In this document: positions 558-34,968 of the stretch, piece after piece
Numbering within the stretch: the stretch's first letter is position 1
How the letters are laid out: every line of letters starts with the position of its first letter
Source of the DNA: Geobacteraceae bacterium
GTDB lineage: Bacteria; Desulfobacterota; Desulfuromonadia; Geobacterales; Geobacteraceae
NCBI GenBank assembly: GCA_024281055.1
Contig: JAMXLF010000092.1
Coordinates: 1 to 36,805 of the forward strand
DNA: 36,805 nucleotides
Reading direction: 5' to 3'
Translations under genes and position numbers: made by a program
Notes under the pieces: generated by a model
Databases searched by the model: none
The model's input: the letters and a program-made list of their open reading frames with translations, nothing else
What the model was told of the DNA's origin: nothing

Positions 558-596
558 GATGCCAAGTTAAAGGTCGTGGACGTGAAGGGAGCGGGT

Positions 597-2897
597 ATGA
601 GAGCAGCTGTAACTGAGTATAAAAGAGCATGGGACGCATATTGTGTACGGCCGAATAGGATTGATTTGCTGAAGAAGGTAGAGAAACTACTTGAACTAAG
701 CCTGCAGCAAAATGACCGAGTTTGTGAACTCTTTTTCCAGGCAAAAGTTAATGACATCAGAAAGAATGTTCATACCTGTCTCGAATACTATGAGCGACTA
801 ACTGCAGAATACAATGCCACGAATGAATATGATGAGCTGGTACTTCTTGGCTGGTCACACGTCAATGCTGCATCCTTATATGAGGATGAAGAAGATGCTG
901 AAATGATGATGAATCATGCTGATGCCGCAATTTCCATTGGCAGGAAACAAAACGATCCTTTATTTTGGGAAATAGAAGGCAGTGGTTATGTAAACAAAGG
1001 GAAGGCGTGGTATTATTTAGATGACTTTGATAAAGAAATAGAAGCTTACGATACTGTTATAAAGAAGTTTACCAATAAGGATAATGAAAAGATCAAACAT
1101 CTAGTATGTACTGCGATTTACTACAAAGGCCTTACTTTAAGAGAGCAATCAAAAAACAATCTTGCAATTATCGAATATGATAAAGTTTTAGAAATAGCTG
1201 TAGGCTGCAAGTATACACCAATACATATTACGTCAATTAACTGTTGGAATGAAAAAAGTGACATTTTCTTAAAGCAAGAAAAACCATTAGATGCTGTGCT
1301 TGAACTAAATCAAGTGATAGAAATATATCGTGGAAAGAAAAACGTGCAAATCAGAAAGGCTGTTGCACAAGCTCTACTAAAAAAGAGTGATATTTTAAAA
1401 AAATTAGGTAAGAGTGAAGAAAGTATAGAAATTATTAAGTCCATCAGTGTTTCAGAAAGAGACAACGAAGAGATTCAGCAACGCATTGCCTTTATCAATT
1501 CTGTTTCTGAGAATCCGGAACTAGATGTACCTCAAAGTATTGACGAAATCATTAGGGCGTTTTCACAAAAGGATAAAGACAGCTTTTTCTCAGAAATGAA
1601 GGAACGTGAGAAAAGAACACAAGCATTTTTGGGTAAAGAAAGTAACTTTAACAGAGATGACAAAGCTTGCCTTTTCTTTGACCTTAGGGAATGGAATTCA
1701 TACACACCGGCCGTTCCAGACCAGCATGAAATTGATCGTGGCGGGGGATATTTTATTAGATATAATAATCAAGGGTTGGTAATCGATCCCGGATTTGATT
1801 TTATAAAAAACTTTGGGGCAGTTGATGGAAGATTATGTGATATCGACCACATATTCATAACTCATGCACACAATGACCATACTCAAGATTTTGAATCAAT
1901 ACTTAGTTTGCTATTTCAATACAATAAACGTAACAAGACGAAAAAGGTCAACCTTTATCTAAGTCAAGGCGCAGCAAGAAAATTCTCAGGTTATTTGCCT
2001 CTTCGAGATGCTTCTTACATTGGTAGAGTGGAGGTCTTAAACCAAGGAAACAAGGAGAATCCGCAGGTAATTCATCTGGCCGGGCTTGAAGGCGCTTCTG
2101 TAACGGTTTTAAAAGCTTATCACGATGATTCAATCACTCTCGACTATTCAGTTGGTCTTGGATTTGAGCTTGAATTCCCTGACGGTATGAGACGAGTTGT
2201 TTTTACGGGTGACACTGGACTGTTTCCCTTAAAAATGAATGAGGAGGGTAAAGTCATAAGAAAAGAGAGTGGAGATCCTGCTTTAGATATTGACTCGCAA
2301 GCTACCAGAGCTATATTCAACCAATATCCAATTACTTTTCGTGAGCCTGATTTGCTTATACCTCACATCGGGTCAATCAAAGAAGATGAATTCAAATCCG
2401 ATCATCGGTCAAAACCTGGGGGAGGTACCTTCGAGGAAAGTGTATACTTCTATCCGAATCATCTTGGACTCAGAGGACTTGTTTTGCTTTTAGCTAGGAT
2501 GAAACCAAAAGTGGTTGTAGTTAGTGAATTTGGTGAAGAATTAAAAAATATTAGATTTGATCTTGTAAGGGGTATAGAAAAATTACTTCGTAGTATGACC
2601 ACTCCAATTGAGAATAGTATATGTTTAGTTCCTGGGGATGTAACAGTGGTTTTCGATATCAAAAAAATGGAATTTCTTTGCCACGATAAAAAGACTTTTA
2701 TTGGATATAATGAAATTGGATACTTGGAAGTGCCAGAACCGATAGATAGTAGATTTTACTGCAATGAGGTAAGCCGTACATATATTTTTAGGAAACCCCT
2801 TCCAACAAAGAAACAAGCACTAAATTTTGTAAAGCATTATCATATAGATGTTGAAGATTACGGTTATCCCTACAATGAGAAAGCCCCGACTCAATAA
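597..2897 (+). CDS. Large two-domain protein. It has an N-terminal alpha-helical TPR-like region and a C-terminal metallo-beta-lactamase (MBL) fold hydrolase or nuclease domain. It appears horizontally acquired.
   Basis: A 767-aa ORF from ATG 597 (listed from in-frame GTG 576, but 597 has an agggagcgggt spacer). The C-terminal half carries MBL motifs: VIDPGFD, DHIFITHAHNDH (HxHxDH), VVFTGDTG and LLIPHIGS. The N-terminal half of roughly 370 aa is helical-repeat, TPR-like sequence. The gene is conspicuously AT-rich, as in atgagagcagctgtaactgagtataaaag..., against GC-rich flanks. It lies between the acnB terminator and a REP-like repeat. Confidence 0.8.
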   Translation: MRAAVTEYKRAWDAYCVRPNRIDLLKKVEKLLELSLQQNDRVCELFFQAKVNDIRKNVHTCLEYYERLTAEYNATNEYDELVLLGWSHVNAASLYEDEEDAEMMMNHADAAISIGRKQNDPLFWEIEGSGYVNKGKAWYYLDDFDKEIEAYDTVIKKFTNKDNEKIKHLVCTAIYYKGLTLREQSKNNLAIIEYDKVLEIAVGCKYTPIHITSINCWNEKSDIFLKQEKPLDAVLELNQVIEIYRGKKNVQIRKAVAQALLKKSDILKKLGKSEESIEIIKSISVSERDNEEIQQRIAFINSVSENPELDVPQSIDEIIRAFSQKDKDSFFSEMKEREKRTQAFLGKESNFNRDDKACLFFDLREWNSYTPAVPDQHEIDRGGGYFIRYNNQGLVIDPGFDFIKNFGAVDGRLCDIDHIFITHAHNDHTQDFESILSLLFQYNKRNKTKKVNLYLSQGAARKFSGYLPLRDASYIGRVEVLNQGNKENPQVIHLAGLEGASVTVLKAYHDDSITLDYSVGLGFELEFPDGMRRVVFTGDTGLFPLKMNEEGKVIRKESGDPALDIDSQATRAIFNQYPITFREPDLLIPHIGSIKEDEFKSDHRSKPGGGTFEESVYFYPNHLGLRGLVLLLARMKPKVVVVSEFGEELKNIRFDLVRGIEKLLRSMTTPIENSICLVPGDVTVVFDIKKMEFLCHDKKTFIGYNEIGYLEVPEPIDSRFYCNEVSRTYIFRKPLPTKKQALNFVKHYHIDVEDYGYPYNEKAPTQ

Positions 2898-2980: not shown

Positions 2981-3060
2981 TTTCCGGAATTCCGGGGACA
3001 CCATACTTAATTCAAAAGGCGGCCAATCGGCCGCCTTTGACGTCGTCACAACGGAAATAT
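2981..3060. repeat. REP-like hairpin repeat, copy A. Its core is ggacaccatacNtaattcaaaaggcggccaatYggccgcctttg.
   Basis: It contains the perfect hairpin aaaggcggcc-aatc-ggccgccttt. An approximately 80-bp near-identical copy lies at 7780-7860, and a shorter related copy at 23383-23412. Confidence 0.7.
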
Positions 3061-3161
3061 GCCTGCCCCCAGCTTTTTTCTTGACCCTGCTCCAGATCAC
3101 GGTAAAATGAGCGCAGTCCCTTGAAATTGCAAGAGATTATCACTGTTGTAGAGGAGACCCG

Positions 3162-3401
3162 GTGAGTCCCACCGTATTCAGGGCAGACGGCTTCCGGTTC
3201 TATTTCTTTTCCCGCGAAGAACCGCGACTCCATATCCATATCCATGGTGAAAGCGGCGAGGCAAAGTTCTGGATCGAGCCCCGGATCGAGATGGCTCAAA
3301 ACTACGGCTTGTCGGAAAAGGACCTGGGAAGGATCGGGAAACTGATCGAGGAGCATGAGGATGACATTCGCTGTGCGTGGCGCCGACACTTCGGCGGCTG
3401 A
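3162..3401 (+). CDS. DUF4160 family small protein
   Basis: GTG start. The N-terminus MSPTVFRADGFRFYFFSREEPRLHIHIHGE...FWIEP matches the DUF4160 family pattern. It overlaps the next gene, as is typical of DUF4160/DUF2442 pairs. Confidence 0.7.
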   Translation: MSPTVFRADGFRFYFFSREEPRLHIHIHGESGEAKFWIEPRIEMAQNYGLSEKDLGRIGKLIEEHEDDIRCAWRRHFGG

Positions 3402-3891
3402 GGTCACGAACATCTCGCAGCACGGGTTCTGGCTGTTGATCGGCGACCAGGAGGCTTTTCTCCCCTTCGAGAACTTTCCCTGGTTCAGGGAAGCACCGGT
3501 GGGGAGCATCCTTCACGTGGAGCTTCAGTCGCCGGACCATCTCTACTGGCCTGAACTGGATGTGGATCTTGAGACGGAGTGCATCCTTAATCCGGATGCA
3601 TATCCGTTGGTAAGCCAAGTACATGAGAACCAGGAGCGGTATGGGCCACAGGAAAATGAGGAGAGCATAAACCGGGAAAGGATAGACGATTGCGTTCTTG
3701 CACTGCTGCAATTGACGCTGCACCTCGGTTCACGTGCTTGGAAAGGGTTTGACTTCGAAGTCTTGGATCGACTCCATGCAAAAGGCTACCTGCTCGATAC
3801 TCGGAACAAGACCAAGTCTGTTGTGCTTACGGAAGAGGGCCTTGCCCGGTCAAAGGCGCTTTTTCGGGAATTGTTTGCCAAAGTGAAATAA
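3355..3891 (+). CDS. DUF2442 domain protein with a C-terminal helical extension that is DUF6429-like
   Basis: The N-terminal region VTNISQHGFWLLIGDQEAFLPFENFPWFREAPVGSILHVEL...LYWPELDVDLE is the DUF2442 signature. The C-terminal part, IDDCVLALLQLTLHLGSRAWKGFDFEVLDRLHAKGYLLDTRNKTKSVVLTEEGLARS, resembles small DUF6429-type proteins. The exact start is uncertain: ATG 3355, ATG 3361 and GTG 3376 are all in frame. It overlaps the end of the DUF4160 gene. Confidence 0.65.
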   Translation: MRMTFAVRGADTSAAEVTNISQHGFWLLIGDQEAFLPFENFPWFREAPVGSILHVELQSPDHLYWPELDVDLETECILNPDAYPLVSQVHENQERYGPQENEESINRERIDDCVLALLQLTLHLGSRAWKGFDFEVLDRLHAKGYLLDTRNKTKSVVLTEEGLARSKALFRELFAKVK

Positions 3892-3959
3892 GTGCCCTTT
3901 CTGCCAGCTCATCAGTATCATCTCGGTCCGGCGCGCCCGCAAAGAGGAGATAGCACTGT

Positions 3960-4184
3960 ATGAAAGCTAAGGATATTGACAAGACCTTCGACGAGGGTGG
4001 CGACATCTCCGCCTATCTCGATGTGACCAGGGCGAGAAGGCCCGAACAGGAGCAAAAACGGGTCAATGTGGATTTCCCGTTATGGATGATTCAGCAGCTC
4101 GACAAGGAATCACGGCGCCTGGGTGTGCCGCGACAGGCCATCATCAAGGTATGGGTGGCAGAACGTCTGGAGAAAGCTGGGTGA
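3960..4184 (+). CDS. BrnA-like (CopG/RHH-type) antitoxin, an orphan with no adjacent BrnT
   Basis: A 74-aa protein. ...DISAYLD...RVNVDFPLWMIQQLDKESRRLGVPRQAIIKVWVAERLE matches the BrnA antitoxin family pattern. No BrnT (DUF497) ORF is found nearby. Confidence 0.65.
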   Translation: MKAKDIDKTFDEGGDISAYLDVTRARRPEQEQKRVNVDFPLWMIQQLDKESRRLGVPRQAIIKVWVAERLEKAG

Positions 4185-4214
4185 TGATGCCCGAACCGCC
4201 GCTCCTCTCCAACT

Positions 4215-4241
4215 AAAAAGCCCGCTCTCCGCGGGCTTCAT
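4215..4241. terminator. Bidirectional intrinsic terminator between convergent genes
   Basis: The hairpin aaaaagcccgc-tctcc-gcgggcttca sits between the BrnA-like gene (+) and the response regulator (-). It belongs to the Geobacter-type terminator family. Confidence 0.6.
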
Positions 4242-4266: not shown

Positions 4267-4659
4267 TTACGAATCCAGGTGCGGAGCGGGTAGGTTATCC
4301 CCTGCCAATGCCTTTCCCACAACGCGCAGCAACTCTTTGAGCTTGAAAGGCTTGGTTATATAGCCGCTTTGTTGTAAGCCCTGCATCTTGGCGAAATGGT
4401 CGGGAAAGTCACTGACAAATACGATCGGAATGCTTGCCACTCTCTGGATATCTTCTGCTGCCATGATCCCATTGATCCTCCCGTCGAGAATCACTTCCAT
4501 GAGCACGAGATCGGGGTGTGTTGCCCGGACTACGTCGGCCACTCCCTCGCCCGTTGCGATGGCGCCGCATACGCAGTAGCCATGTGTGGTAAGTACTGTC
4601 TGGAGTAAGGCTGTTATCGAGCTTTCATCCTCGACGATGAGAATTCGCGGTTTTTCCAT
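4267..4659 (-). CDS. Single-domain response regulator (CheY-like receiver)
   Basis: MEKPRILIVEDESSITALLQTVLTTHGYCV...DLVLMEVILDGRINGIMAAEDIQ...ITKPFKLKELL has canonical receiver motifs (DE pair, phospho-Asp context, K). I chose the ATG at 4659 (MEKPRIL) over the listed upstream ATG 4737 because of the domain boundary. Confidence 0.8.
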   Translation of the reverse strand: MEKPRILIVEDESSITALLQTVLTTHGYCVCGAIATGEGVADVVRATHPDLVLMEVILDGRINGIMAAEDIQRVASIPIVFVSDFPDHFAKMQGLQQSGYITKPFKLKELLRVVGKALAGDNLPAPHLDS

Positions 4660-4888
4660 GGTCGGCCCCGGCACGGGTTTTTTCCCACCAGCATACCGCA
4701 AAAATAGGCCAATGAGCATTACTCCGGGATTGCACAACGATTACTATTCTGACATGAAAAGGGAGATGATGGGGTCCCGGTTGCCATCTGCCGGCGAGCG
4801 ATCGATGCTGCGCCACGCATCCGTTGCCATACCGGGCGATCGTAGTAAAATAGGAACAGAGAGATGAGTTACACAAGGAGGTGTCGAC

Positions 4889-5413: not shown

Positions 5414-5451
5414 AATATAAGTTTTTGTCCTTTCGCCGCTCTTCACCAACG

Positions 5452-5488
5452 AAAAAAGCCCGCCAAAAGCGGGCTTTCCTGCCTGTCC
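5452..5488 (+). terminator. Intrinsic terminator or REP of the Geobacter-type family
   Basis: aaaaaagcccgccaaaagcgggctttcctgcctgtcc, a hairpin plus a conserved tail, lies downstream of the DinB-like gene. Confidence 0.6.
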
Positions 5489-5531: not shown

Positions 5532-5873
5532 CTATGCGCAGGTTACCCGCATACGTCCGATCCCACTCTTTTTTCGGTCCTTGATGACGATATCAACATC
5601 ACGGCCGAGAAGGTTAAGGAGGTGGCAGAGCTTTTCAAGCGAGAATCCCCGGAGCTTACCATGCTGAATCATGGAAACCTTCGGCTGCGGGATCCCAAGG
5701 ATCGCCGCAGCCTGTGTCTGCGAGAGATGACGTTTTTCAATTATGTTGTTGATTTTCATTGCCAGATTACTTTTTACCAGTAATTCTTCGGAATCCGGTA
5801 ATCCCAAGTCTTCGAACACATTGCCTGAAGAGGGCGTTACACTAATTTCTTCCTGTAATCCTGTCTTTTTCAT
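5532..5873 (-). CDS. higA: HigA-type HTH (XRE family) antitoxin
   Basis: ...GNVFEDLGLPDSEELLVKSNLAMKINNIIEKRHLSQTQAAAILGIPQPKVSMIQHGKLRGFSLEKLCHLLNLLGRDVDIVI is the classic HigA-like antidote pattern. It lies immediately downstream of the HigB-like toxin on the same strand. Confidence 0.8.
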   Translation of the reverse strand: MKKTGLQEEISVTPSSGNVFEDLGLPDSEELLVKSNLAMKINNIIEKRHLSQTQAAAILGIPQPKVSMIQHGKLRGFSLEKLCHLLNLLGRDVDIVIKDRKKSGIGRMRVTCA

Positions 5874-5925
5874 ATCTAAAATCCTTTTAGATGCCCCACT
5901 TGGGCCAGTAACTTTAATGGACCTT

Positions 5926-6274
5926 CTAGTTGCCTGCCAATTCTTTCGCTTTCTTGAGCCGTGCCTTGAGGACCTCGATCTCGTATTTCGGGGTTTCTAT
6001 TCCCTTCTTCGACTTTTTCTGGAAAGCGTGCAGGACGTAAACTTTATCGCCGATCTTGACGGTATACATAACCCGGTATGTGTTACCGTCGTGGTCATCG
6101 CAAATTTCAATGACCGTAGCCCCGCCGCCGATGCCTTTAAGCGGTTTGGTCTGTTGTGATTTCCCTCCTTCTTGCGCGACCCGGAGAGCATACCCCATGC
6201 TGATCCGCGTCTCTTCCGGTAAGCCTCGCAGGACTTCCAGGGAGTCACCTAAAAAAAACTACATCCTTTGCCAT
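5926..6274 (-). pseudogene. higB: HigB-like (RelE/ParE superfamily, phage-derived COG4679-type) toxin, interrupted by a frameshift in an A8/T8 homopolymer
   Basis: The listed ORF 5926..6198 (MGYALRVAQEGGKSQQTKPLKGIGGGATVIEI...VYVLHAFQKKSKKGIETPK) lacks the family N-terminus. An ATG at 6274 with a strong SD (ggaggtgaa-ATG) encodes MAKDVVFF and then stops. Removing one base from the 8-A run (plus strand 6251-6258) restores a full-length 117-aa toxin: MAKDVVFLGDSLEVLRGLPEETRISMGYALRVAQ.... Confidence 0.7.
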
Positions 6275-7779: not shown

Positions 7780-7860
7780 TGAATTCCCTGATTTCCTGGG
7801 ACACCATACGTAATTCAAAAGGCGGCCAATTGGCCGCCTTTGTCGTTTCCCGTGGAAATC
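7780..7860. repeat. REP-like hairpin repeat, copy B
   Basis: cctgaattccctgatttcctgggacaccatacgtaattcaaaaggcggccaattggccgcctttgtcgtttcccgtggaaat. The core of about 46 bp differs from copy A (2995-3040) at 2 positions. Confidence 0.7.
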
Positions 7861-9075: not shown

Positions 9076-9092
9076 AAAACGAGGGAGGATAA

Positions 9093-9117
9093 AAAAACCC
9101 GCCAAATGCGGGCTTTC
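9093..9117. terminator. Bidirectional intrinsic terminator
   Basis: aaacccgc-caaat-gcgggcttt sits between convergent genes (8632..9075 + and msrA -). Confidence 0.6.
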
Positions 9118-9139
9118 CCGTCAGTTGTCCGCGACTTCC

Positions 9140-9779: not shown

Positions 9780-10070
9780 CTATTCCTTCACCCGCTTCGA
9801 TGCCGCCCGATTAACGGCAAAATTCTCCCGCTTGCCGACGGCCACCACGATGACAACAATGCGGTTGTCGTCAACCTGGTAGACCAGCCTGTAGCCGGCA
9901 TTCTTCAGCTTGATCTTGTAGCAATCCGCCATGCCCGAGAGCCGGGCAGACTCGACGCGGGGCCGCTCCAGCCGCTCGGCGAGCTTTTTCTTGAACTGTT
10001 CCCGGATTCCTCCGTCCAGCTTGTGCCACTCCTTCAGAGCGGATTCCCTGAATTCGAGGCTATAGCTCAT
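9780..10070 (-). CDS. relE: RelE/StbE-type toxin
   Basis: [19 protein letters not shown]...[23 protein letters not shown] is the RelE/ParE family pattern. It overlaps the upstream antitoxin gene by 11 nt. Confidence 0.85.
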
Positions 10071-10305
10071 CGAGGGAAACCTTGACGGTCGGTTCGCGTT
10101 CCCGTTCTTTGACGATGCGCCCCATCTCGTAATCCTCCAGCTTCTCCATCAGCACCTCGAAAGCCTCGGCAGGGATGATATAGGCACTCGGCTTGTTGTG
10201 GTTGAGGATCGCCACGGGTGCGCCTTCGGACTGGTTGATGATCCGGGAAGGGTTCTTCTTCAGGTCGCTGATGCTGACCGATGCCCGGGCATAAAGACGT
10301 TCCAT
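10060..10305 (-). CDS. relB: RelB/StbD (Phd/YefM-like) antitoxin
   Basis: MERLYARASVSISDLKKNPSRIINQSEGAPVAILNHNKPSAYIIPAEAFEVLMEKLED. An SD ggagg lies 7 nt upstream of ATG 10305. The listed longer start at 10329 lacks an SD. Confidence 0.8.
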   Translation of the reverse strand: MERLYARASVSISDLKKNPSRIINQSEGAPVAILNHNKPSAYIIPAEAFEVLMEKLEDYEMGRIVKEREREPTVKVSLDEL

Positions 10306-10455
10306 ATAATGACCTCCAATTAGATACAATTACAGAGACAAATATAGGTCACAATTTCCGGGATTGCAAGCGTTCTGTTCTACCTGACGGGGGTTTTTGC
10401 TTGTCATGTTAGAGGAATTTCAGTAAGCTGATGCCAGCAAGTCACCGAGAGGGCG

Positions 10456-10506
10456 ATGAGTCCAACCGTATTCAGGGAGAGCGCACGTCTCACCTCTCAC
10501 GTCTAA
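10456..10506 (+). pseudogene. Decayed 5' remnant of a DUF4160 gene
   Basis: atgagtccaaccgtattcaggg encodes MSPTVFR, identical to the first seven residues of the DUF4160 gene at 3162, with 19 of 21 nt identical. The frame stops after 16 codons. The upstream DNA also echoes the 3121-3161 promoter region (attgcaag...tagaggag). Confidence 0.4.
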
Positions 10507-12581: not shown

Positions 12582-12793
12582 GTTAGCCTCCTTCTCCGAC
12601 GGTTATCCAGGGGCTGCTCGCCCCCCCTGTCGACACTATTGCAATGAGTCGGCCAACTCCCCATGTTTCGTTCGCAATGCCGCAAATGCCCGCATCCCGC
12701 ATCATCCCCTCCCACCGCCGTACCCCGTATGTTTGTACCCTAAACACCAGCTGCCTAATTATTAGGCAGGTCCTGGAAAGGCGAGGGGGTCAG

Positions 12794-12816
12794 AAAGCCC
12801 GCCAGAAGCGGGCTTT
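12794..12816 (+). terminator. Geobacter-type terminator/REP hairpin
   Basis: aaagcccgccagaagcgggcttt. A second, decayed copy lies at 12862-12884 with a conserved tail running to about 12912. Confidence 0.5.
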
Positions 12817-12924
12817 CCTGCCTCCAACATGCTATAATGAAAAAGGGAATTCGTGGGAAAAAACCCGCCAAAACGGGCTTTCCTGCCTGTCTCGCAGGGC
12901 TGCCGCGTGACACGCTCTCCTTCC

Positions 12925-13788: not shown

Positions 13789-15099
13789 ATGAAAAAAATC
13801 GCAGTAGCCCTCGTGGCCGTCGTCGTGCTCGGAACGATTCTGTTCTATTTTCTCGGGTCCCCCGCTCCCAAGGTGTCACTGAGCCCTGACGCAGGCCTGA
13901 TCGGCGCCGGCCGTGAGCTTGCCCTGAAGCTGGACGCACAGGGAGGGGGGCTGAAAAAGCTGTCTGTCAGCGCAGTACAAGGGGAGAAGATGGTCACGAT
14001 CCTGGCGAAGGATTATCCCCCTGGCAGCCGCCAGGCCGCGGAGGCGTTCAATCTGGCCAAAGCCGGCCTGAAGGATGGGACATTCACCCTGCAGGTCGAT
14101 GCGACAGGCTCCGCACCCCGTTTTGGCGCGGCCAGGACCACAACCCAGGCCCATTCCTTCACCCTGGATACCAAGCCGCTGGACGTGGCGGTCGTGAGCA
14201 TCGCCCATAATATCAACCAGGGCGGCGCGGGACTGGTCGTCTACACCGTTTCGAAGGAGGTTGAAAAGACCGGCATCGTAATCGCCGACCAGTTTTATCC
14301 GGGGTACCGGCAGGGGGGGGATTATTACGCCTGTCTCTTCCCCGCGCCCTACGACATGGACCCCGGCAAGTTCGTGCCGAAGGTGCTGGCGGTCGACCGG
14401 GCAGGGAACGAGAGCCTCGTGGGGATCATCTATCACGTGACTCCCAGGTCCTTTTCGACGGACCGGATCGATCTGACGGATGCCTTCCTCGAAAAGATCG
14501 CCGCGGAGTTCAAGGGAAAGTTCCCGCAAGGGGGAACCAACCTGGAGATATTCCTCAAGGCAAACAGGGACCAGCGCCAGCAGGACCGCAAGGCGATCGC
14601 CGACTACGGCCGGAAGACCTCTCCGACGCCGCTCTGGCAGGGACCCTTTCTCCGCATGCCGAACACCGCCCCCCTCGGCGGTTTCGCCCAGGCACGCACC
14701 TATGTATACCAGGGGAAAGAGGTCGACCGGCAGACACATCTCGGCTTCGACCTGGCATCGGTGGCCCACGCCGACGTGCCGGCCGCCAACCGCGGCACGG
14801 TCGTCTTTGCCGGCGACTTCGGCATCTATGGCCAATGCATCATCATCGACCACGGGCTGGGGCTGCAGAGTATCTACGGGCACCTGAGCCGGATCGGCGT
14901 CAAGCAGGGTGACAAGGTGGAAAAAGGACAGATAATCGGCAGTACCGGGGCCACCGGCATGGCCGGCGGGGATCACCTCCATTTTGAAACGGTAATCGCC
15001 GGGCAGTCGGTCAATCCGGTCGAATGGTGGGACCCGCACTGGATGAAAAACAACGTCACGGGCAAACTCGAATTGATCAAGGCGCCCACGACCAAATGA
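13789..15099 (+). CDS. M23 family (LytM-type) peptidoglycan metalloendopeptidase with an N-terminal signal anchor
   Basis: I used ATG 13789 (MKKIAVALVAVVVLGTILF...) rather than the long upstream ORF 13468. The C-terminus ...HLGFDLASVAHADVPAANRGTVVFAG...IIIDHGLGLQSIYGHLS...GDHLHFE carries the M23 HxxxD / HxH signature. Confidence 0.8.
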   Translation: MKKIAVALVAVVVLGTILFYFLGSPAPKVSLSPDAGLIGAGRELALKLDAQGGGLKKLSVSAVQGEKMVTILAKDYPPGSRQAAEAFNLAKAGLKDGTFTLQVDATGSAPRFGAARTTTQAHSFTLDTKPLDVAVVSIAHNINQGGAGLVVYTVSKEVEKTGIVIADQFYPGYRQGGDYYACLFPAPYDMDPGKFVPKVLAVDRAGNESLVGIIYHVTPRSFSTDRIDLTDAFLEKIAAEFKGKFPQGGTNLEIFLKANRDQRQQDRKAIADYGRKTSPTPLWQGPFLRMPNTAPLGGFAQARTYVYQGKEVDRQTHLGFDLASVAHADVPAANRGTVVFAGDFGIYGQCIIIDHGLGLQSIYGHLSRIGVKQGDKVEKGQIIGSTGATGMAGGDHLHFETVIAGQSVNPVEWWDPHWMKNNVTGKLELIKAPTTK

Positions 15100-15111
15100 A
15101 AAAGTAGCAAA

Positions 15112-15134
15112 AAAGCCCGCCAAAAGCGGGCTTT
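15112..15134 (+). terminator. Geobacter-type terminator with an extended REP tail
   Basis: aaaaaagcccgccaaaagcgggcttt is followed by cctgtctttctcgccgggattgcaccacgccgacc (to about 15175). This tail is similar to those at 12885-12912 and 19376-19410. Confidence 0.6.
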
Positions 15135-15211
15135 CCTGTCTTTCTCGCCGGGATTGCACCACGCCGACCTGAGCGTGCCAATCCGACTCGAATCCTCTTC
15201 GGTTCTCAAAC

Positions 15212-19247: not shown

Positions 19248-19357
19248 GGTTCCTCCTCTGTTAGATGATCCGAGCTTGGATGGGGTCGCACGGTCAGGTA
19301 TACAACATTCTAAGGGGATTTCAAGGAGCTGGAGGCAAGGGGGAAGTTATAAGAAAG

Positions 19358-19410
19358 CCCGCCAATAGCGGGCTTTCCTGCCTGTCTCGCCGGAACTGCA
19401 TCATGCCGAC
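19358..19410 (+). repeat. Geobacter-type terminator hairpin with an extended REP tail
   Basis: aaagcccgccaatagcgggcttt-cctgcctgtctcgccggaactgcatcatgccgacc. Confidence 0.6.
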
Positions 19411-20819: not shown

Positions 20820-21309
20820 GATAATCTCCTTTTTCTTGTCGGGTGTTTCCGCAACGTGAATCCGGTCGCCGCCATAGCGTTATACCATTGCCGTGGTGAC
20901 GGTTCCCGCTTCCGTACGGAGTATCATATGGAGAGTTTCACAGCCCGTGCCAAATTGCTACCATGTTGCAACTTGTTAAAAGCAAAGATGTTTTTGAGTT
21001 GAGGCTGAAAAGCGCGCCCCTTATGCGGTGCAAATGTTTGCACCTCGGAGGGAAAGGAATTGCACCACCGGAATGGAAGTGGAGCTCTGGTTCCCCGGTG
21101 TCCTTTAGGCCCTGAGGGCCCCTGCGGTGAGAGAGCCCCGGGTTTTTGCTTGTCATATCAGGGGATTTTCAAGTACTCTGGTACGAGTGATTCTCAACTA
21201 CCTCTGGCGGTTCTCTGCGTTCCTCCGCGCCATCTGCGGCTAGATAAAAGTCATGCTCTCTACCCACATTCCCGGCTTCGGCCACCCAGAATCCGCAACG
21301 CTGTCCGTA

Positions 21310-23294: not shown

Positions 23295-23382
23295 CCCCGC
23301 TCCCCCCGTTGGAAATAGAGCGACCGTTACCAGTATACCACGCTCTTTCCGCCCGGCGATTCGGGGACATCATGCCCAATGC

Positions 23383-23412
23383 AAAAGGCGGCCAAAAGGC
23401 CGCCTTTCGTTG
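23383..23412. repeat. REP-like hairpin, third member of the aaaaggcggcc...ggccgccttt family
   Basis: caaaaggcggcc-aaaa-ggccgcctttcg. It shares the stem sequence with copies A and B at 2995-3040 and 7798-7843. Confidence 0.6.
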
Positions 23413-26262: not shown

Positions 26263-26553
26263 GGGGGCACCTCCTGCAGGATACGATCTTGGATACTATA
26301 GGGCATAATTTCCGGGATTACTAGCCTGTTGGTGGAACTGCGAGGCAAGGAAGTCGGGAGGTCTGGTAAAAGGCTCTTCTCAGCGACAATACACAGGTCG
26401 AAAAGGTACAGAGATAGACCTGATTCCGGCAGGACTATTGTCGATGATATTGAGACATGTCAGGACCAGACTCGATACAATGCCTTGATTCTTGCCAGCA
26501 CTTTCTTTATAGTGGGTGCGCTGCCGGCAATCATATCAGTGAGGGGAGCATTG

Positions 26554-30876: not shown

Positions 30877-31332
30877 TGGGGGGCGACACACAAAAATTGT
30901 CTTTACTCAAATAAGCTAATGTGTTAATGAAAAATGAATTTATAATGAAGTAAAAATTAACAAACCGTCATTGACGGTATCGTTTATCGGATTGACCTTT
31001 ACCCACCCACCGTCCACCCATGACATACGTCCCATTCATGCTGCCGATTCGATAGCGAGGAGTAGGCGGAATCCGGAACTCAGCCGTGGCAAATTGTCGG
31101 ATTATCCAGCACGGTACCCGGACATACACATCCCTTTGCCCCCCACGCACTTCCCGCTGACCTTATAGATTCTCTGCTTCCTGTCGTGCCCAAGGGGTAC
31201 GAGTTCCGGAAAAGACCGATTCTGACCGAACGCCTTCACCCGACGGCTCCTGCTGACTCACCGTCGAGGCAGGTGGAGTGCGGTCGTTTGATGTTGACTT
31301 GAATGAATCTGCTATTTAAAAGGAGGGACGTT

Positions 31333-34300
31333 ATGAGGAACAGTCGTTTTCAATCGTGGATTCTACTTCTTGGCCTCAGCCTTGCCTGCATCTGTGGCGA
31401 TTTTGTCGCCGACGCCCGCGCGGCGTCAGTCCCGGTCCTCATCAAGGACATCAACACCACGATCAAGAACAATTCGAACATCCGTAATCTGGCGGCGGGA
31501 GGCCCCACTGGAATCAAGCTCTATTTCACCGCCTTCGACCTGGCCCACGGCAACGAGCTCTGGAAGAGTGACGGGACCGGAGCCGGGACGGTCATGGTGA
31601 AAGACATCAAGCCCGGAACGGGTAGTTCGTATCACGATCCCGATTACCTTACCTACTGGAACGGCTTCGTCTATTTCGAGGCCTACGACCCCGGCGGCTA
31701 CTGGTCGCTCTGGAAGAGTGACGGCACCGCTGCCGGCACCGTCGAGGTAAGTGCGGATGTCGATCCGGAATACATAGTTGTTTTCAAGGGCGCCCTCTAC
31801 TTCAGCGGCTATGACGACGGTCTCTGGAAGAGCGACGGTACCACTGCCGGAACGGTTCCGGTCAAATCGGGAATCGGCACTCTCGAGGACCTGGTGGTTG
31901 TCGGGGCTAACAGGCTTTTCTTCAGGCAGGGCAGCGATCTCTGGACCAGCGACGGTACTGATGCGGGCACTGTCCTCCTTGCCCCTGGGGTTGAACCGGA
32001 CCAGCTCACGAATGTCAACGGCACCCTCTATTTCTATGGTTGGGACGATGTTGCAAGTGCTTACCGGCTCTGGACCAGTAACGGCACTGCTGGCGGCACG
32101 TTTGCTCTTTCTTATGCCGCTGTGCCGCGGGAGCTCACCGATGTGAATGGCACTCTCTTTTTTCAGGCAAACGACCCCGTTGCAGGCTCGTCCCTTCTCA
32201 AACTCGTCCCCCCTGCGGTGCTGCCGACGGTGGTGAAGAGCGGCATGTCCAACCCGAACAACCTGTACAACTGGAACGGGGTCCTCTATTTCGCCAACGC
32301 CAACGGCCTCTGGAAGAGCGACGGCACGCTTGCCGGCACCGTCGTGGTGAAGAGCAGCGTCTGGCCGACGCTGCTGACGGGTGTTGGCGGTATCTTATAC
32401 TTCAACGGCTGGGATAACACCCACGGCTACGAATTATGGTCCAGTAACGGAACAACCGCCGGCACGGCCATGGTGAAGGATATCTATGCGGGAACAACCG
32501 ACAGCGACCCCGCCCGGTTAACCAACGTGAACGGCACCCTCTTCTTCACGGCTACAGAACCAACGACCGGGACGCAGCTCTGGAAGAGCGACGGCACCGC
32601 CGCCGGCACTGTCCTGGTGCAGAATGTCTCTCCCGGCACCCAGGATGCAGTGCCGAACAGTCTTTTCGATCTGAACGGCACCCTCTACTTTGCTGCCGAC
32701 AACGACACCAACGGCAACAAGCTGTGGCAGACCAACGGCACTGCCGCCGCCACCAGCATGATTCAGGGCTTCACCGGCGTCAATCCCGTCCCGCTCGTCA
32801 ATGCCAACGGCACCCTGTACTTTGCCGCCAATGCCGACGATCTCTGGAAGAGAGAAGGCTCGAACCCCGCAGTCCTGGTAAAGGCAGGCGTCACGACGGA
32901 CGATCCCAGCAAGGTGATTTATATCAACGGCACCCTCTATTTCGAGGGATGGGACAGCGCTCACGGGTACGAGCTCTGGAAGAGCGACGGCACCACGGCC
33001 AACACAGTCATGGTGAAGGACATCAAAGCCGGAACGAACAATTCGAATATCAATGGTCTTGTCAATCGGAACGGAACCCTCTATTTCATCGCCACGAGCG
33101 GGACCGATGCCCAACTCTGGAAGAGTGATGGCACCACGGCCGGGACGGTGCCGGTGAGCACCGGTGTCACAAACGTGACGGATCTCACCCTGGTAAACGG
33201 GAAGCTCTTCTTCTCGGGCAACGATGCCTCCAATAACAACGCCCTTTGGGTAAGCGACGGCACTACCGTCACGCTGCTGGCTAACGCCATCTGGCCGAGC
33301 AATTTCACCGCAGTCGGCAACACACTGTTTTTCAAGGGATGGACGGACCCGACAGGGTATGAACTCTGGAAAAGCGACGGCACCGTAGCCGGTACCGTGC
33401 TCGTGAAGGATATCTATCCCGGCAACGGAGACGGACAACCCGCAAACCTTACCAATGTGAACGGCACGCTGTACTTCTCCGTCTGGAATACCTGGGGAAC
33501 GACCGACCACGATCAGCTCTGGAAGAGTGATGGCACGGCAGCCGGAACGGTGGTGGTCAAGGACCTTCCCGCCGATTATGGTTTTACATCGATAAACTCA
33601 CTCACTTCCGTACACGGCATCCTGGCGTTCACATTCATGGACAAGGGTTATTACCCCACCCATGACGATAGCGCCGAACTCTGGATCAGCGACGGCACTG
33701 ACTGGGGAACCGTCAAGGTGAAGGATATCTATCCGGGAGATTTCGGTTCGGCTCCCGCCAATCTCACCATGGCGAACACGCCACCCAACGGCGTCGACAA
33801 GGAGGCCCTCTTCTTCACCGCCATCGACCCGCTGGCCGGCAAAGAACTCTTCATCCTCGACTTCACTCCTCCCACCAGCGCAATTACCGCGATAAACAGT
33901 GTTAGTCCTCCTCCGTACCTCCGCGGGACGAGCTTCGTCATCTCCGGCACTACGAGCGATTCCATGCCCGGCAGCGGGGTGACCGCGATGCTGGTTTCTA
34001 CTGACAACGGCCTTAACTGGTACAGCGCGACATACACGCCGGGCGCCTCCTCCTGGTCTTACACATGGAACAACCCCGCTGACGGGGTGTACACCATCAA
34101 GAGTCAGGCCGTCGACCTGGCAACCAACGTCCAGAACCCCTTTGCAAGCATCGCCGTCACTGTCGACAACACTCCGCCGGCTGTCGCGTTCACCATGCCG
34201 GCCGTGTACCACAGCATCACGGTACCGATAACGACCTTCACCGCCACCGATACCAATGGGATAAGCCACTACTGCCTGACCTCGACCAATTCCTATGGCG

Positions 34301-34968
34301 GTTGTGTCTGGGATCCCACCAAACCGACCACCGTCACCTTCGCCAGTGAGGGGAGCAACACCGTATATGCCTGGGCCAGGGACCCGGCGGGCAACGTGTC
34401 GGCCGAGCACGGCGTCACCGTTACCGTCACCCTGCCGCATACTCTCAACGTAAACGTGCCGGGCGCCGGCGACGGGAGCGGCAGCGTGCTGTTCGTTCAG
34501 AAAAACCAGGCGTTTTCGACCAACTACACGACCACGGTCTACAGCTTCGACCCGATCAAGCTCCAGGCCACCCCGGCCCAGTACTCGGTGTTCGGGGGGT
34601 GGTCCGGCATCTGCTCGGGCACGGGCGACTGCAACTACACGGTGCCCACGGTCGCGGCTGGTGGCAGCACCCAGACAGCCACCGCCACCTTCGATTTTGA
34701 CAGCGTCCATGAGGTCTATGTCGCTCCTACCTATTATTCAACGATACTTGGCGCCTACAACGCCCCTGCCACGACCAACGGCGCCATCATCAGGATTTGG
34801 GGGGTCGATCTCGACGAAACCCTTACGCTGGGCGGGAACAAACAGGTCACGTTGCTCGGAGGGGACAACCAGTCCCACAACGCCTATACCGGCGTCATGA
34901 CGACGGTGCAAGGGCCGATGACCATCAAGAGCGGATCGGTGACCATAGAGAATATGGTCGTCAAATAG
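31333..34968 (+). CDS. Large secreted ELWxxDGT-repeat protein with C-terminal bacterial Ig-like domains
   Basis: A perfect SD aaaaggaggg precedes ATG 31333. The signal peptide is MRNSRFQSWILLLGLSLACICGDFVADARA. There are more than 20 repeats of about 45-50 aa, each containing ELWKSDGTAAGT or a variant (the TIGR04534-type ELWxxDGT repeat). The C-terminal 350 aa contain Ig-like modules (...TPPTSAITAINSV...VTVDNTPPAVAF...). Confidence 0.85.
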   Translation: MRNSRFQSWILLLGLSLACICGDFVADARAASVPVLIKDINTTIKNNSNIRNLAAGGPTGIKLYFTAFDLAHGNELWKSDGTGAGTVMVKDIKPGTGSSYHDPDYLTYWNGFVYFEAYDPGGYWSLWKSDGTAAGTVEVSADVDPEYIVVFKGALYFSGYDDGLWKSDGTTAGTVPVKSGIGTLEDLVVVGANRLFFRQGSDLWTSDGTDAGTVLLAPGVEPDQLTNVNGTLYFYGWDDVASAYRLWTSNGTAGGTFALSYAAVPRELTDVNGTLFFQANDPVAGSSLLKLVPPAVLPTVVKSGMSNPNNLYNWNGVLYFANANGLWKSDGTLAGTVVVKSSVWPTLLTGVGGILYFNGWDNTHGYELWSSNGTTAGTAMVKDIYAGTTDSDPARLTNVNGTLFFTATEPTTGTQLWKSDGTAAGTVLVQNVSPGTQDAVPNSLFDLNGTLYFAADNDTNGNKLWQTNGTAAATSMIQGFTGVNPVPLVNANGTLYFAANADDLWKREGSNPAVLVKAGVTTDDPSKVIYINGTLYFEGWDSAHGYELWKSDGTTANTVMVKDIKAGTNNSNINGLVNRNGTLYFIATSGTDAQLWKSDGTTAGTVPVSTGVTNVTDLTLVNGKLFFSGNDASNNNALWVSDGTTVTLLANAIWPSNFTAVGNTLFFKGWTDPTGYELWKSDGTVAGTVLVKDIYPGNGDGQPANLTNVNGTLYFSVWNTWGTTDHDQLWKSDGTAAGTVVVKDLPADYGFTSINSLTSVHGILAFTFMDKGYYPTHDDSAELWISDGTDWGTVKVKDIYPGDFGSAPANLTMANTPPNGVDKEALFFTAIDPLAGKELFILDFTPPTSAITAINSVSPPPYLRGTSFVISGTTSDSMPGSGVTAMLVSTDNGLNWYSATYTPGASSWSYTWNNPADGVYTIKSQAVDLATNVQNPFASIAVTVDNTPPAVAFTMPAVYHSITVPITTFTATDTNGISHYCLTSTNSYGGCVWDPTKPTTVTFASEGSNTVYAWARDPAGNVSAEHGVTVTVTLPHTLNVNVPGAGDGSGSVLFVQKNQAFSTNYTTTVYSFDPIKLQATPAQYSVFGGWSGICSGTGDCNYTVPTVAAGGSTQTATATFDFDSVHEVYVAPTYYSTILGAYNAPATTNGAIIRIWGVDLDETLTLGGNKQVTLLGGDNQSHNAYTGVMTTVQGPMTIKSGSVTIENMVVK

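What the first reader, a model, noticed from the sequence alone, without database searches (positions are those of the whole stretch)
3162..4184. DUF4160 / DUF2442-DUF6429 fusion pair followed by an orphan BrnA-like antitoxin: a compact TA-like cluster with an unusual fusion
DUF4160 and DUF2442 genes are a conserved, overlapping pair widely suspected to be a toxin-antitoxin-like module. Here the DUF2442 protein carries an extra C-terminal helical domain resembling free-standing DUF6429 proteins. The next gene is a BrnA-type RHH antitoxin with no BrnT toxin. This raises the possibility of a three-component or shuffled module in which the DUF2442 fusion substitutes for the toxin. A decayed second copy of the DUF4160 5' end plus promoter (10360-10506) shows that the module has duplicated and degenerated within the region.
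Basis: partly seen in the sequence, partly recalled or inferred. Interest (0 to 1): 0.55.

Follow-up and report, generated by a model that had tools for sequence, protein, structure and literature searches.

The report
Two adjacent toxin-antitoxin cassettes, one broken
The three small genes are two unrelated toxin-antitoxin cassettes lying side by side: an intact DUF4160/DUF2442 (DhiTA-type) pair whose antitoxin carries an extra winged-helix domain, and the leftover antitoxin of a BrnT/BrnA pair whose toxin gene has been cut down to its last 19 codons.

Summary
The proposed three-component or shuffled module does not.

1. DUF4160/DUF2442 is the experimentally validated DhiT/DhiA system of Dickeya. 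DUF4160 is the toxin and DUF2442 the antitoxin, so the fusion protein is an antitoxin.
2. The 68-nt "intergenic" gap before brnA still encodes the last 19 codons of BrnT. Homology to intact brnTA loci starts abruptly at 3909, 18 nt after the fusion's stop codon. BrnA is therefore an orphan because brnT was truncated.
3. None of 11 other independent fusion loci with usable downstream sequence, and none of 160 related loci, carries a BrnA-like gene nearby. The genes downstream of the fusion differ from locus to locus.
4. The fusion is a recurrent architecture with 429 database relatives, mostly from Geobacteraceae. It is almost always preceded by DUF4160.
5. The DUF6429 domain models confidently (pLDDT 93) as a winged-helix fold. 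I infer that it is the antitoxin's operator-binding module.
6. The "second copy" at about 10.4 kb is real. It is the remnant of a different DUF4160 cassette, not a local duplicate.

This is ordinary toxin-antitoxin turnover in a TA-rich region, with one modestly new point: a fold assignment for DUF6429.

The parts
3081..3108 (+). Promoter-like site (TTGACC, 16-nt spacer, TAAAAT; 10 of 12 matches) about 54 nt upstream of the DUF4160 start codon. It is the candidate promoter of the cassette.
   Evidence: Consensus scan. DNA homology to the closest relative locus (L171-173, 81%) begins at 3073 and includes both hexamers. Function was not tested.
3162..3401 (+). dhiT-like toxin gene (DUF4160, 79 aa, GTG start).
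   Evidence: Pfam PF13711, 60.8 bits against a cutoff of 23, covering profile positions 1-64 of 65. A DUF4160 gene lies directly upstream of the DUF2442 gene in 76 of 80 related genome loci. DUF4160 is the toxin in Dickeya DhiTA.
3361..3891 (+). dhiA-like antitoxin gene with a C-terminal DUF6429 domain (176 aa from ATG 3361; an alternative ATG lies at 3355). Layout: DUF2442 domain at about 3397-3597, low-confidence linker at about 3610-3670, DUF6429 winged-helix domain at about 3673-3882.
3893..3908 (.). 16-nt junction between the two cassettes, with no homology to either relative set.
   Evidence: dhiTA-type homology to L171-173 ends at 3892. brnTA homology to L175/L176 starts at 3909.
3909..3970 (+). 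3' stub of a truncated brnT toxin gene: the last 19 codons (..ISIISVRRARKEEIALYES*) with no start codon in frame. It still holds the Shine-Dalgarno sequence of brnA (GAGGAG, 3944-3949).
   Evidence: tblastn of intact BrnT proteins gives 84% identity to residues 68-86, E=4e-6, and no other BrnT piece in the window. The window is 94% identical over 287 nt to an intact brnTA locus, L175. The stub itself differs from L175 at 2 of 62 nt.
3960..4184 (+). brnA: intact BrnA-family ribbon-helix-helix antitoxin gene (74 aa), now without a cognate toxin.
   Evidence: NCBIfam NF047399, 118 bits against a cutoff of 60. At least 7999 relatives. Relatives that are 93-95% identical sit behind an 86-aa BrnT with an 11-nt overlap.
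4220..4236 (.). GC-rich hairpin (GCCCGC-TCTCC-GCGGGC). On the minus strand it is followed by TTTTT, so it is the likely terminator of the convergent response-regulator gene (4267-4737, minus strand). It may also end the plus-strand transcript.
   Evidence: Read directly from the sequence. The automatic scan did not call it.
10391..10483 (+). Remnant of a second, different DUF4160 cassette: its leader plus the first 9 codons (MSPTVFRES), after which the similarity is lost.
   Evidence: 80% identity over 90 nt (E=3e-12) to the leader and 5' end of the DUF4160 gene in fusion locus L082. Only 28 nt match the 3162 copy.

Best explanation
Positions 3073-4195 hold two independent type II toxin-antitoxin cassettes joined by a rearrangement.

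Cassette 1 (3073-3892) is an intact DhiTA-type operon. A DUF4160 toxin gene is followed, with a 41-nt overlap, by a DUF2442 antitoxin gene whose product has a flexible linker and a C-terminal DUF6429 domain. I infer the following for cassette 1:
- The DUF2442 domain binds and neutralises the DUF4160 toxin, as DhiA does for DhiT.
- The DUF6429 domain, which models as a winged helix, binds an operator in the 3073-3161 promoter region and autoregulates the operon. This is the usual two-module design of type II antitoxins.

Cassette 2 (3909-4195) is the 3' part of a brnTA operon. Codons 1-67 of brnT and the brnTA promoter have been lost. What remains is a 62-nt untranslatable brnT stub and an intact brnA with its own ribosome-binding site. 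BrnA is a leftover orphan antitoxin. If it is expressed at all, this is by read-through from the cassette-1 promoter.

There is no three-component system.

Shown: domain identities, the brnT stub and both breakpoints, non-conservation of the adjacency, and the winged-helix fold.
Inferred: toxicity and neutralisation, DNA binding by DUF6429, and read-through expression of brnA.
For: - HMM scores for all four domains are well above their cutoffs.
- DUF4160/DUF2442 was validated as the toxin/antitoxin pair DhiT/DhiA, toxin gene first and autoregulated by the complex (PMC8198452; restated in PMC12065111).
- A DUF4160 gene lies directly upstream of the DUF2442 gene in 76 of 80 genome loci and in nearly all fusion loci.
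- brnT stub: BrnT residues 68-86 are encoded at 3911-3967 (E=4e-6) and no other BrnT fragment is in the window.
- Homology to the intact brnTA of L175 (94% over 287 nt) spans 3909-4195.
- Homology to the nearest fusion locus (81%) spans 3073-3892.
- Close BrnA relatives (93-95% identical) all follow an 86-aa BrnT.
- No BrnA-like gene lies within 3 kb in 160 related loci.
- No downstream gene is shared among fusion loci.
- The same junction is present in an independent Logan assembly (L170).
Against: - No experiment shows that this pair is toxic or neutralising.
- The toxin is only a distant relative of Dickeya DhiT (NCBIfam DhiT equivalog, 14 bits against a cutoff of 100).
- No conserved palindromic operator was found upstream of the fusion-type operons.
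- The DUF6429 model has only one helix between strand 1 and the wing, so a canonical helix-turn-helix is not evident. Winged-helix domains can also mediate protein contacts.
- Dickeya DhiA represses its promoter without a DUF6429 domain, so the extra domain is not strictly needed for autoregulation.
- The window is probably a metagenome-derived contig, so a chimeric join at 3893-3908 is not fully excluded.
Confidence: 0.8

Rival explanations
1. Three-component or shuffled module. The DUF4160 protein, the DUF2442-DUF6429 fusion and BrnA work together, with the fusion acting as the toxin that BrnA neutralises.
For: The three genes are co-directional and closely spaced (a 68-nt gap), and no terminator was called between them. 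brnA is intact and keeps its Shine-Dalgarno sequence.
Against: DUF2442 is the antitoxin in the validated system. The gap holds a brnT stub, so the adjacency is a rearrangement scar. None of the 11 other fusion loci with downstream sequence has BrnA or any other conserved third gene. Close BrnA relatives pair with BrnT.
Confidence: 0.04
2. The origin by truncation is the same, but the orphan BrnA is retained for a function. It would be co-transcribed from the cassette-1 promoter and act either as an 'anti-addiction' antitoxin against BrnT toxins encoded elsewhere or arriving on mobile elements, or as a free-standing RHH regulator.
For: The brnA ORF is intact. Against the BrnT-partnered gene in L175 it shows 9 codons with synonymous changes only and 4 with non-synonymous changes. 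Its Shine-Dalgarno sequence is preserved in the stub, and no terminator was called between the cassettes. Orphan antitoxins are widespread and such roles have been proposed for them (PMC12654330).
Against: The stub differs from L175 at only 2 of 62 nt, so the truncation may be too recent for selection to have acted. The substitution pattern cannot separate changes made before and after the truncation. No other brnT is in the window, and the rest of the genome is not available.
Confidence: 0.15
3. The junction at 3893-3908 is a metagenome assembly chimera that joins two genomes, so the adjacency is not biological.
For: TA genes are multi-copy and prone to mis-joins.
Against: The identical junction occurs in a separately assembled Logan contig of 7.9 kb (L170). 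That contig may come from the same reads. There is no repeat at the junction that would cause a mis-join. Another truncated TA remnant at 10391-10483 shows that such scars are normal in this genome.
Confidence: 0.05
4. The DUF6429 domain of the antitoxin is not an operator-binding module. It would instead be a protein-interaction or sensing domain, for example for oligomerisation, protease targeting, or binding a trigger such as a phage protein.
Confidence: 0.3

Closest known systems
DhiT/DhiA type II toxin-antitoxin system of Dickeya dadantii 3937 (DUF4160/DUF2442; PMC8198452)
   Same: The Pfam domain pair is the same. The toxin gene comes first and the antitoxin gene overlaps it. The unit is a small bicistronic operon with a promoter just upstream.
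   Different: The antitoxin here is twice as long because of a linker and a C-terminal DUF6429 winged-helix domain. The toxin scores far below the NCBIfam DhiT equivalog cutoff (14 bits against 100). The overlap is 41 nt instead of 4 nt. No functional data exist for this subfamily.
BrnT/BrnA type II toxin-antitoxin system (BrnT, PF04365, ribonuclease toxin; BrnA, RHH antitoxin; gene order brnT-brnA)
   Same: brnA is a full-length, high-scoring family member. It is 93-95% identical to BrnA proteins that sit behind an intact 86-aa BrnT. The last 19 codons of brnT and the 11-nt brnT/brnA overlap are preserved.
   Different: Codons 1-67 of brnT and the operon's promoter are missing. The locus therefore encodes no toxin and is an orphan-antitoxin remnant.
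Free-standing DUF6429 proteins (PF20008, about 75-77 aa; NCBI name 'DUF6429 family protein')
   Same: The C-terminal domain of the fusion is 55-70% identical to them and shares the conserved motifs VLALL..L.LH, RAWKG.D, RL..KG and K.KSV.LT.EG.
   Different: Here the domain is fused to a DUF2442 antitoxin. The free-standing genes have variable neighbours and often abut IS66-family transposase genes. The fusion makes up essentially one 50%-identity cluster among about 1500 DUF6429 clusters.
Small winged-helix DNA-binding proteins and domains (SSV1 F-93, MarR, PadR, DtxR/MntR N-domain, HrcA N-domain)
   Different: Sequence identity is only 11-22%. The model shows an extended, conserved RAWKG segment where the second HTH helix is expected. 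DNA binding is untested.

Membership tests
DhiT/DhiA (DUF4160/DUF2442) type II TA | The first gene encodes a DUF4160 (PF13711) protein. | tested here: met
   60.8 bits against a cutoff of 23, E=1.5e-16, near full-length profile match.
DhiT/DhiA (DUF4160/DUF2442) type II TA | The second gene encodes a DUF2442 (PF10387) protein. | tested here: met
   48.3 bits against a cutoff of 23.9, residues 15-81.
DhiT/DhiA (DUF4160/DUF2442) type II TA | Toxin-first, same-strand, overlapping bicistronic arrangement that is conserved across genomes. | tested here: met
   The overlap is 41 nt (47 nt from the alternative start). A DUF4160 gene lies directly upstream in 76 of 80 loci and in the fusion loci.
DhiT/DhiA (DUF4160/DUF2442) type II TA | Equivalog-level similarity to the Dickeya DhiT toxin (NCBIfam NF048015). 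| tested here: not met
   14.3 bits against a cutoff of 100. The toxin belongs to the same Pfam family but is not an equivalog.
DhiT/DhiA (DUF4160/DUF2442) type II TA | The toxin arrests growth, the antitoxin neutralises it, and the complex represses the promoter. | not testable with these tools
   This needs expression and reporter assays. It has been shown only for the Dickeya pair.
BrnT/BrnA type II TA | BrnA-family RHH antitoxin. | tested here: met
   NF047399, 118.3 bits against a cutoff of 60. The Pfam CopG_antitoxin hit is below its cutoff (21.5 bits against 28).
BrnT/BrnA type II TA | An intact BrnT (PF04365) toxin gene immediately upstream, overlapping brnA. | tested here: not met
   Only BrnT residues 68-86 remain, at 3911-3967, with no in-frame start codon. 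No other BrnT piece is in the window.
DUF6429 (PF20008) | Match to the family profile above the gathering score. | tested here: met
   100.8 bits against a cutoff of 31.6, profile positions 2-71 of 71.
Winged-helix DNA-binding domains | Winged-helix fold. | tested here: met
Winged-helix DNA-binding domains | Canonical helix-turn-helix pair with a recognition helix, and sequence-specific DNA binding. | tested here: inconclusive
   DSSP of the model shows a single helix (residues 32-40) between strand 1 and the wing. No conserved operator was found. Binding itself cannot be tested here.
Three-component TA systems (e.g. toxin-antitoxin-chaperone or toxin-antitoxin-regulator operons) | A third gene is conserved next to the TA pair across independent genomes. 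| tested here: not met
   None of the 11 other distinct fusion loci with downstream sequence shares a downstream gene or has a BrnA-like gene.

The most novel reading that the evidence does not exclude
DUF6429 is an unrecognised family of small winged-helix nucleic-acid-binding proteins. In Geobacteraceae it was captured once as the operator-binding module of a DhiA-type antitoxin. In its free-standing form (about 1500 clusters at 50% identity), often convergent with IS66-family transposase genes, it would act as a small regulator of mobile-element or TA gene expression. Separately, the orphan BrnA could be kept under the DhiTA promoter as an anti-addiction antitoxin, which would make this a functional composite operon.
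Probability: 0.3. Interest if true: 0.4.

Novelty: new variant of a known kind. Interest (0 to 1): 0.25.

Why it matters
- **Annotation.** A gene triplet that looks like an exotic three-part system is explained by a rearrangement scar. The case shows that short "intergenic" gaps next to orphan antitoxins should be checked for toxin stubs before new architectures are proposed.
- **DUF6429.** This domain of unknown function gets a testable role. It models as a winged helix, and one subfamily of a validated antitoxin family (DhiA/DUF2442) has acquired it, most plausibly for promoter binding.
- **DhiTA systems.** Only one DhiTA system has been characterised, and its toxin's target is unknown. The two-domain antitoxin variant, abundant in Geobacteraceae, offers a second handle on how these systems are regulated.
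- **Overall.** None of this changes how TA systems are understood. It is a routine refinement.

Tried and rejected
- **Solved structures.** A sequence-profile search of the fusion family found no relative; the best hit was E=0.28 and spurious.
- **Operator search.** Aligning the upstream regions of six fusion-type operons and scanning them for inverted repeats gave no shared palindrome. An imperfect palindrome, CTTGAAATTGCAAG at 3121-3134, is visible by eye but is not conserved in relatives.
- **Partner of free-standing DUF6429.** Neighbours proved heterogeneous: IS66 transposase, TfoX_N, HAD hydrolase, a peptidase and unknowns. I drew no TA-like inference for the free-standing form.
- **Other libraries.** PADLOC and PHROGs gave no hits for the three proteins. 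Rfam and the tRNA scan found nothing in the window.
- **Plasmids.** No fusion occurs on PLSDB plasmids, only free-standing DUF6429.
- **A BrnT-like gene at 21004-21144 (minus strand).** The hit has E=0.099 and the ORF does not look like a protein, so I rejected it.

Full report
**Observation**

The region holds three co-directional ORFs: 3162-3401 (79 aa, GTG start), 3355/3361-3891 (178/176 aa) and 3960-4184 (74 aa).

| ORF | Family | Score | Cutoff |
|---|---|---|---|
| 1 | Pfam DUF4160 | 60.8 bits | 23 |
| 2, residues 15-81 | Pfam DUF2442 | 48.3 bits | 23.9 |
| 2, residues 107-176 | Pfam DUF6429 | 100.8 bits | 31.6 |
| 3 | NCBIfam NF047399, BrnA-family antitoxin | 118 bits | 60 |

ORFs 1 and 2 overlap by 41 nt, or 47 nt from the alternative start. 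The homologues' N-termini favour the ATG at 3361.

**What the first pair is**

DUF4160/DUF2442 is more than a suspected TA-like pair. One member, dhiTA of Dickeya dadantii 3937, was validated experimentally (PMC8198452):
- The DUF4160 product (DhiT, first gene) inhibits growth in Dickeya and E. coli.
- Co-expression of the DUF2442 product (DhiA) removes the effect.
- The antitoxin represses the promoter by about 50%. The TA complexes tested repressed their promoters by about 70-99%.

A 2025 comparative study also treats DUF4160 as an effector domain that is typically followed by DUF2442 (PMC12065111). In this framework the fusion protein is an antitoxin, not a toxin candidate.

The pairing is strongly conserved. 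In 80 genome loci that encode close DUF2442 relatives, a DUF4160 gene lies immediately upstream, usually overlapping it, in 76. The toxin here is only a distant relative of Dickeya DhiT: it scores 14 bits against the NCBIfam equivalog cutoff of 100. Membership therefore holds at the Pfam-family level only.

**How unusual the fusion is**

It is not rare. A search of 5.8 billion proteins gave 429 relatives, and 119 of the 120 best carry both DUF2442 and DUF6429. Named sources are Geomobilimonas luticola, Geotalea toluenoxydans, Geobacter sp. SVR and Geobacteraceae MAGs. NCBI already labels these proteins "DUF6429 family protein".

Within DUF6429 as a whole the fusion is a minority form:
- A HMMER scan of 1.84 billion cluster representatives found 1506 DUF6429 clusters, nearly all 75-150 aa. 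The fusion appears essentially as one 177-aa cluster.
- Of 80 metagenome loci recovered with the C-terminal domain, 8 encode the fusion, one of them frameshifted. Nearly all the others encode free-standing proteins of about 75-77 aa.
- Conversely, DUF2442 proteins 55-70% identical to the N-terminal half are mostly stand-alone. Only 2 of 80 genome loci are fused, and none has a separate DUF6429 gene nearby.

The fusion is thus one lineage-specific capture of a free-standing domain. No fused form occurs on PLSDB plasmids.

**What DUF6429 is**

The full-length model was mediocre (pLDDT 67), with a disordered linker at residues 84-101. The C-terminal domain modelled alone, with 39 free-standing homologues, reached pLDDT 93 and pTM 0.83.

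The wing carries a conserved basic motif, R-N/G-K-x-K-S, with an invariant Lys.

My inference is that DUF6429 supplies the DNA-binding, autoregulatory module of a two-module antitoxin, and that DUF2442 neutralises the toxin. Four caveats apply:
- The model shows only one helix between strand 1 and the wing.
- I found no operator conserved among fusion-type promoters.
- Dickeya DhiA represses its promoter without this domain.
- Some winged-helix domains bind proteins, not DNA.

**Why BrnA has no BrnT**

The 74-aa protein belongs to a very large family, with at least 7999 hits and many above 80% identity. Its close relatives (93-95% identical) always sit behind an 86-aa BrnT (PF04365) whose stop overlaps the brnA start by 11 nt.

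Translating the 68-nt "intergenic" gap in the window gives ...ISIISVRRARKEEIALYES*. These are the last 19 residues of BrnT (84% identity to residues 68-86 of an intact BrnT, E=4e-6). No other BrnT fragment is present anywhere in the window.

At the DNA level the boundaries are sharp:

| Segment | Window coordinates | Evidence |
|---|---|---|
| Homology to the nearest fusion locus, L171-173 (81%) | 3073-3892, promoter to stop codon | |
| Junction with no homology to either set | 3893-3908 (16 nt) | |
| Homology to intact brnTA, L175 (94% over 287 nt) | 3909-4195 | |

The stub has no in-frame start codon, but it retains the Shine-Dalgarno sequence of brnA. BrnA is therefore an orphan because brnT lost codons 1-67, and the operon its promoter, in a deletion or rearrangement.

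The stub differs from L175 at only 2 of 62 nt. brnA shows 9 codons with synonymous changes only and 4 with non-synonymous changes. The event is probably recent, and these data cannot tell whether brnA is still under selection.

**Is there a conserved third gene?**

No. Besides the window I collected 13 distinct fusion loci, 11 of them with usable downstream sequence. None has a BrnA-like gene, and their downstream regions share nothing with one another. What follows the fusion differs each time:
- a fatty-acid hydroxylase;
- an SMR transporter;
- a convergent restriction-modification methylase;
- an unknown 95-aa gene followed by a histidine kinase.

Toxin decay is also frequent in these loci:
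- 5'-truncated DUF4160 genes in L083 and L086.
- A shortened, non-overlapping 60-aa DUF4160 in Geotalea (L179).
- GCG in place of the start codon in L171-173.

**The "second copy" near 10.4 kb**

Similarity to the 3162 gene is limited to 28 nt (25/28), covering the start codon and seven codons. The leader does not match. However, 10391-10479 is 80% identical over 90 nt (E=3e-12) to the leader plus first codons of the DUF4160 gene in another fusion locus, L082. This is a genuine remnant of a second, different DhiT-type cassette, cut after about 9 codons. It is not evidence that the 3162 module duplicated locally.

**Context**

The surrounding 10 kb is rich in TA genes:
- a Gp49/HTH_37 (HigBA-like) pair at 5532-6198, minus strand;
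- a Phd/ParE pair at 9780-10329, minus strand.

A promoter-like site (TTGACC, 16-nt spacer, TAAAAT) at 3081-3108 is conserved in the nearest relative. No terminator was called between the fusion gene and brnA, so read-through into brnA is plausible but untested. The same junction is present in an independently assembled Logan contig. This argues against an assembly chimera but does not exclude one.

**Verdict**

The locus is an intact DhiTA-type cassette with a winged-helix-extended antitoxin, abutting the remnant of a brnTA cassette. This is ordinary TA turnover. The one modestly new element is the fold assignment and proposed role for DUF6429. I rate it a new variant of a known kind, with interest about 0.25.

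Noticed in passing
window 576-2897 (+): A 773-aa protein lies directly upstream. It has N-terminal TPR repeats and a C-terminal metallo-beta-lactamase fold. The collection's precomputed Pfam hits include Anti-Pycsar_Apyc1 (PF23023). It gave no PADLOC hit.
   Followed up: partly
window 5532-6198 (-) and 9780-10329 (-): Two further intact TA pairs lie nearby: Gp49 toxin with HTH_37 antitoxin (HigBA-like), and Phd/YefM antitoxin with ParE toxin. The first 10 kb of the window is a TA-rich stretch.
   Followed up: partly
window 5438-5484, 9077-9123, 12777-12823, 12842-12888, 15095-15141, 19337-19383: A family of six intergenic copies of a hairpin element, AAAAAGCCCGCCAAAAGCGGGCTTTCCTGCCT. They look like REP elements or terminators. 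Some copies share up to 69 nt of flank.
   Followed up: no
window 2981-3043, 7784-7846, 23350-23412: A second repeated 63-nt element ends in the hairpin AAAAGGCGGCCAATCGGCCGCCTTT. One copy sits just upstream of the DUF4160 promoter. Several copies also occur in the unrelated fusion locus L082 (positions 286-339, 1181-1208, 1721-1776).
   Followed up: partly
window 10343-10422; 21140-21171; 26297-26340: Pieces of the leader upstream of the DUF4160 remnant recur elsewhere in the window: 32 nt at 88% identity at 21140, and 44 nt at 75% at 26297. The 21140 copy also resembles the L082 leader. They may be a shared promoter or leader motif. No Rfam match.
   Followed up: no
window 31303-34968 (+): A 1221-aa ORF contains 10-12 diverged repeats, spaced about 120-250 nt apart, each encoding a motif of the type ...LWKSDGT.AGT..V... 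It looks like a large repeat or beta-propeller surface protein.
   Followed up: no
L106, L110, L113, L115, L116, L121, L123, L130, L138, L146, L152, L156; plasmid hits H2, H7, H8: Free-standing DUF6429 genes are often convergent with the 3' end of a gene of about 560 aa. In most of these metagenome loci the two overlap by 19 nt. In L113 that gene is an IS66-family transposase. Annotated Rhizobium and Paracoccus plasmids show the same DUF6429/IS66 adjacency. The small winged-helix protein may be linked to IS66 elements.
   Followed up: partly
L083 490-582, L086 2652-2744, L179 1803-1985, L171 155-157: In other fusion loci the DUF4160 toxin gene is often damaged while the fused antitoxin stays intact: it is 5'-truncated to about 22 codons in L083 and L086, shortened to 60 aa in Geotalea (L179), and has GCG in place of the GTG start in L171-173.
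   Followed up: partly
L162 2172-2501, L163, L165: In another lineage, an identical 74-aa BrnA follows a ParE toxin gene after a gap of about 330 nt in which no BrnT is called. This may be a second independent case of an orphan BrnA with a decayed brnT.
   Followed up: no
window 4220-4236: A perfect 6-bp GC hairpin is followed by TTTTT on the minus strand, downstream of the response-regulator gene. It looks like a textbook intrinsic terminator, yet the terminator scan did not report it.
   Followed up: no
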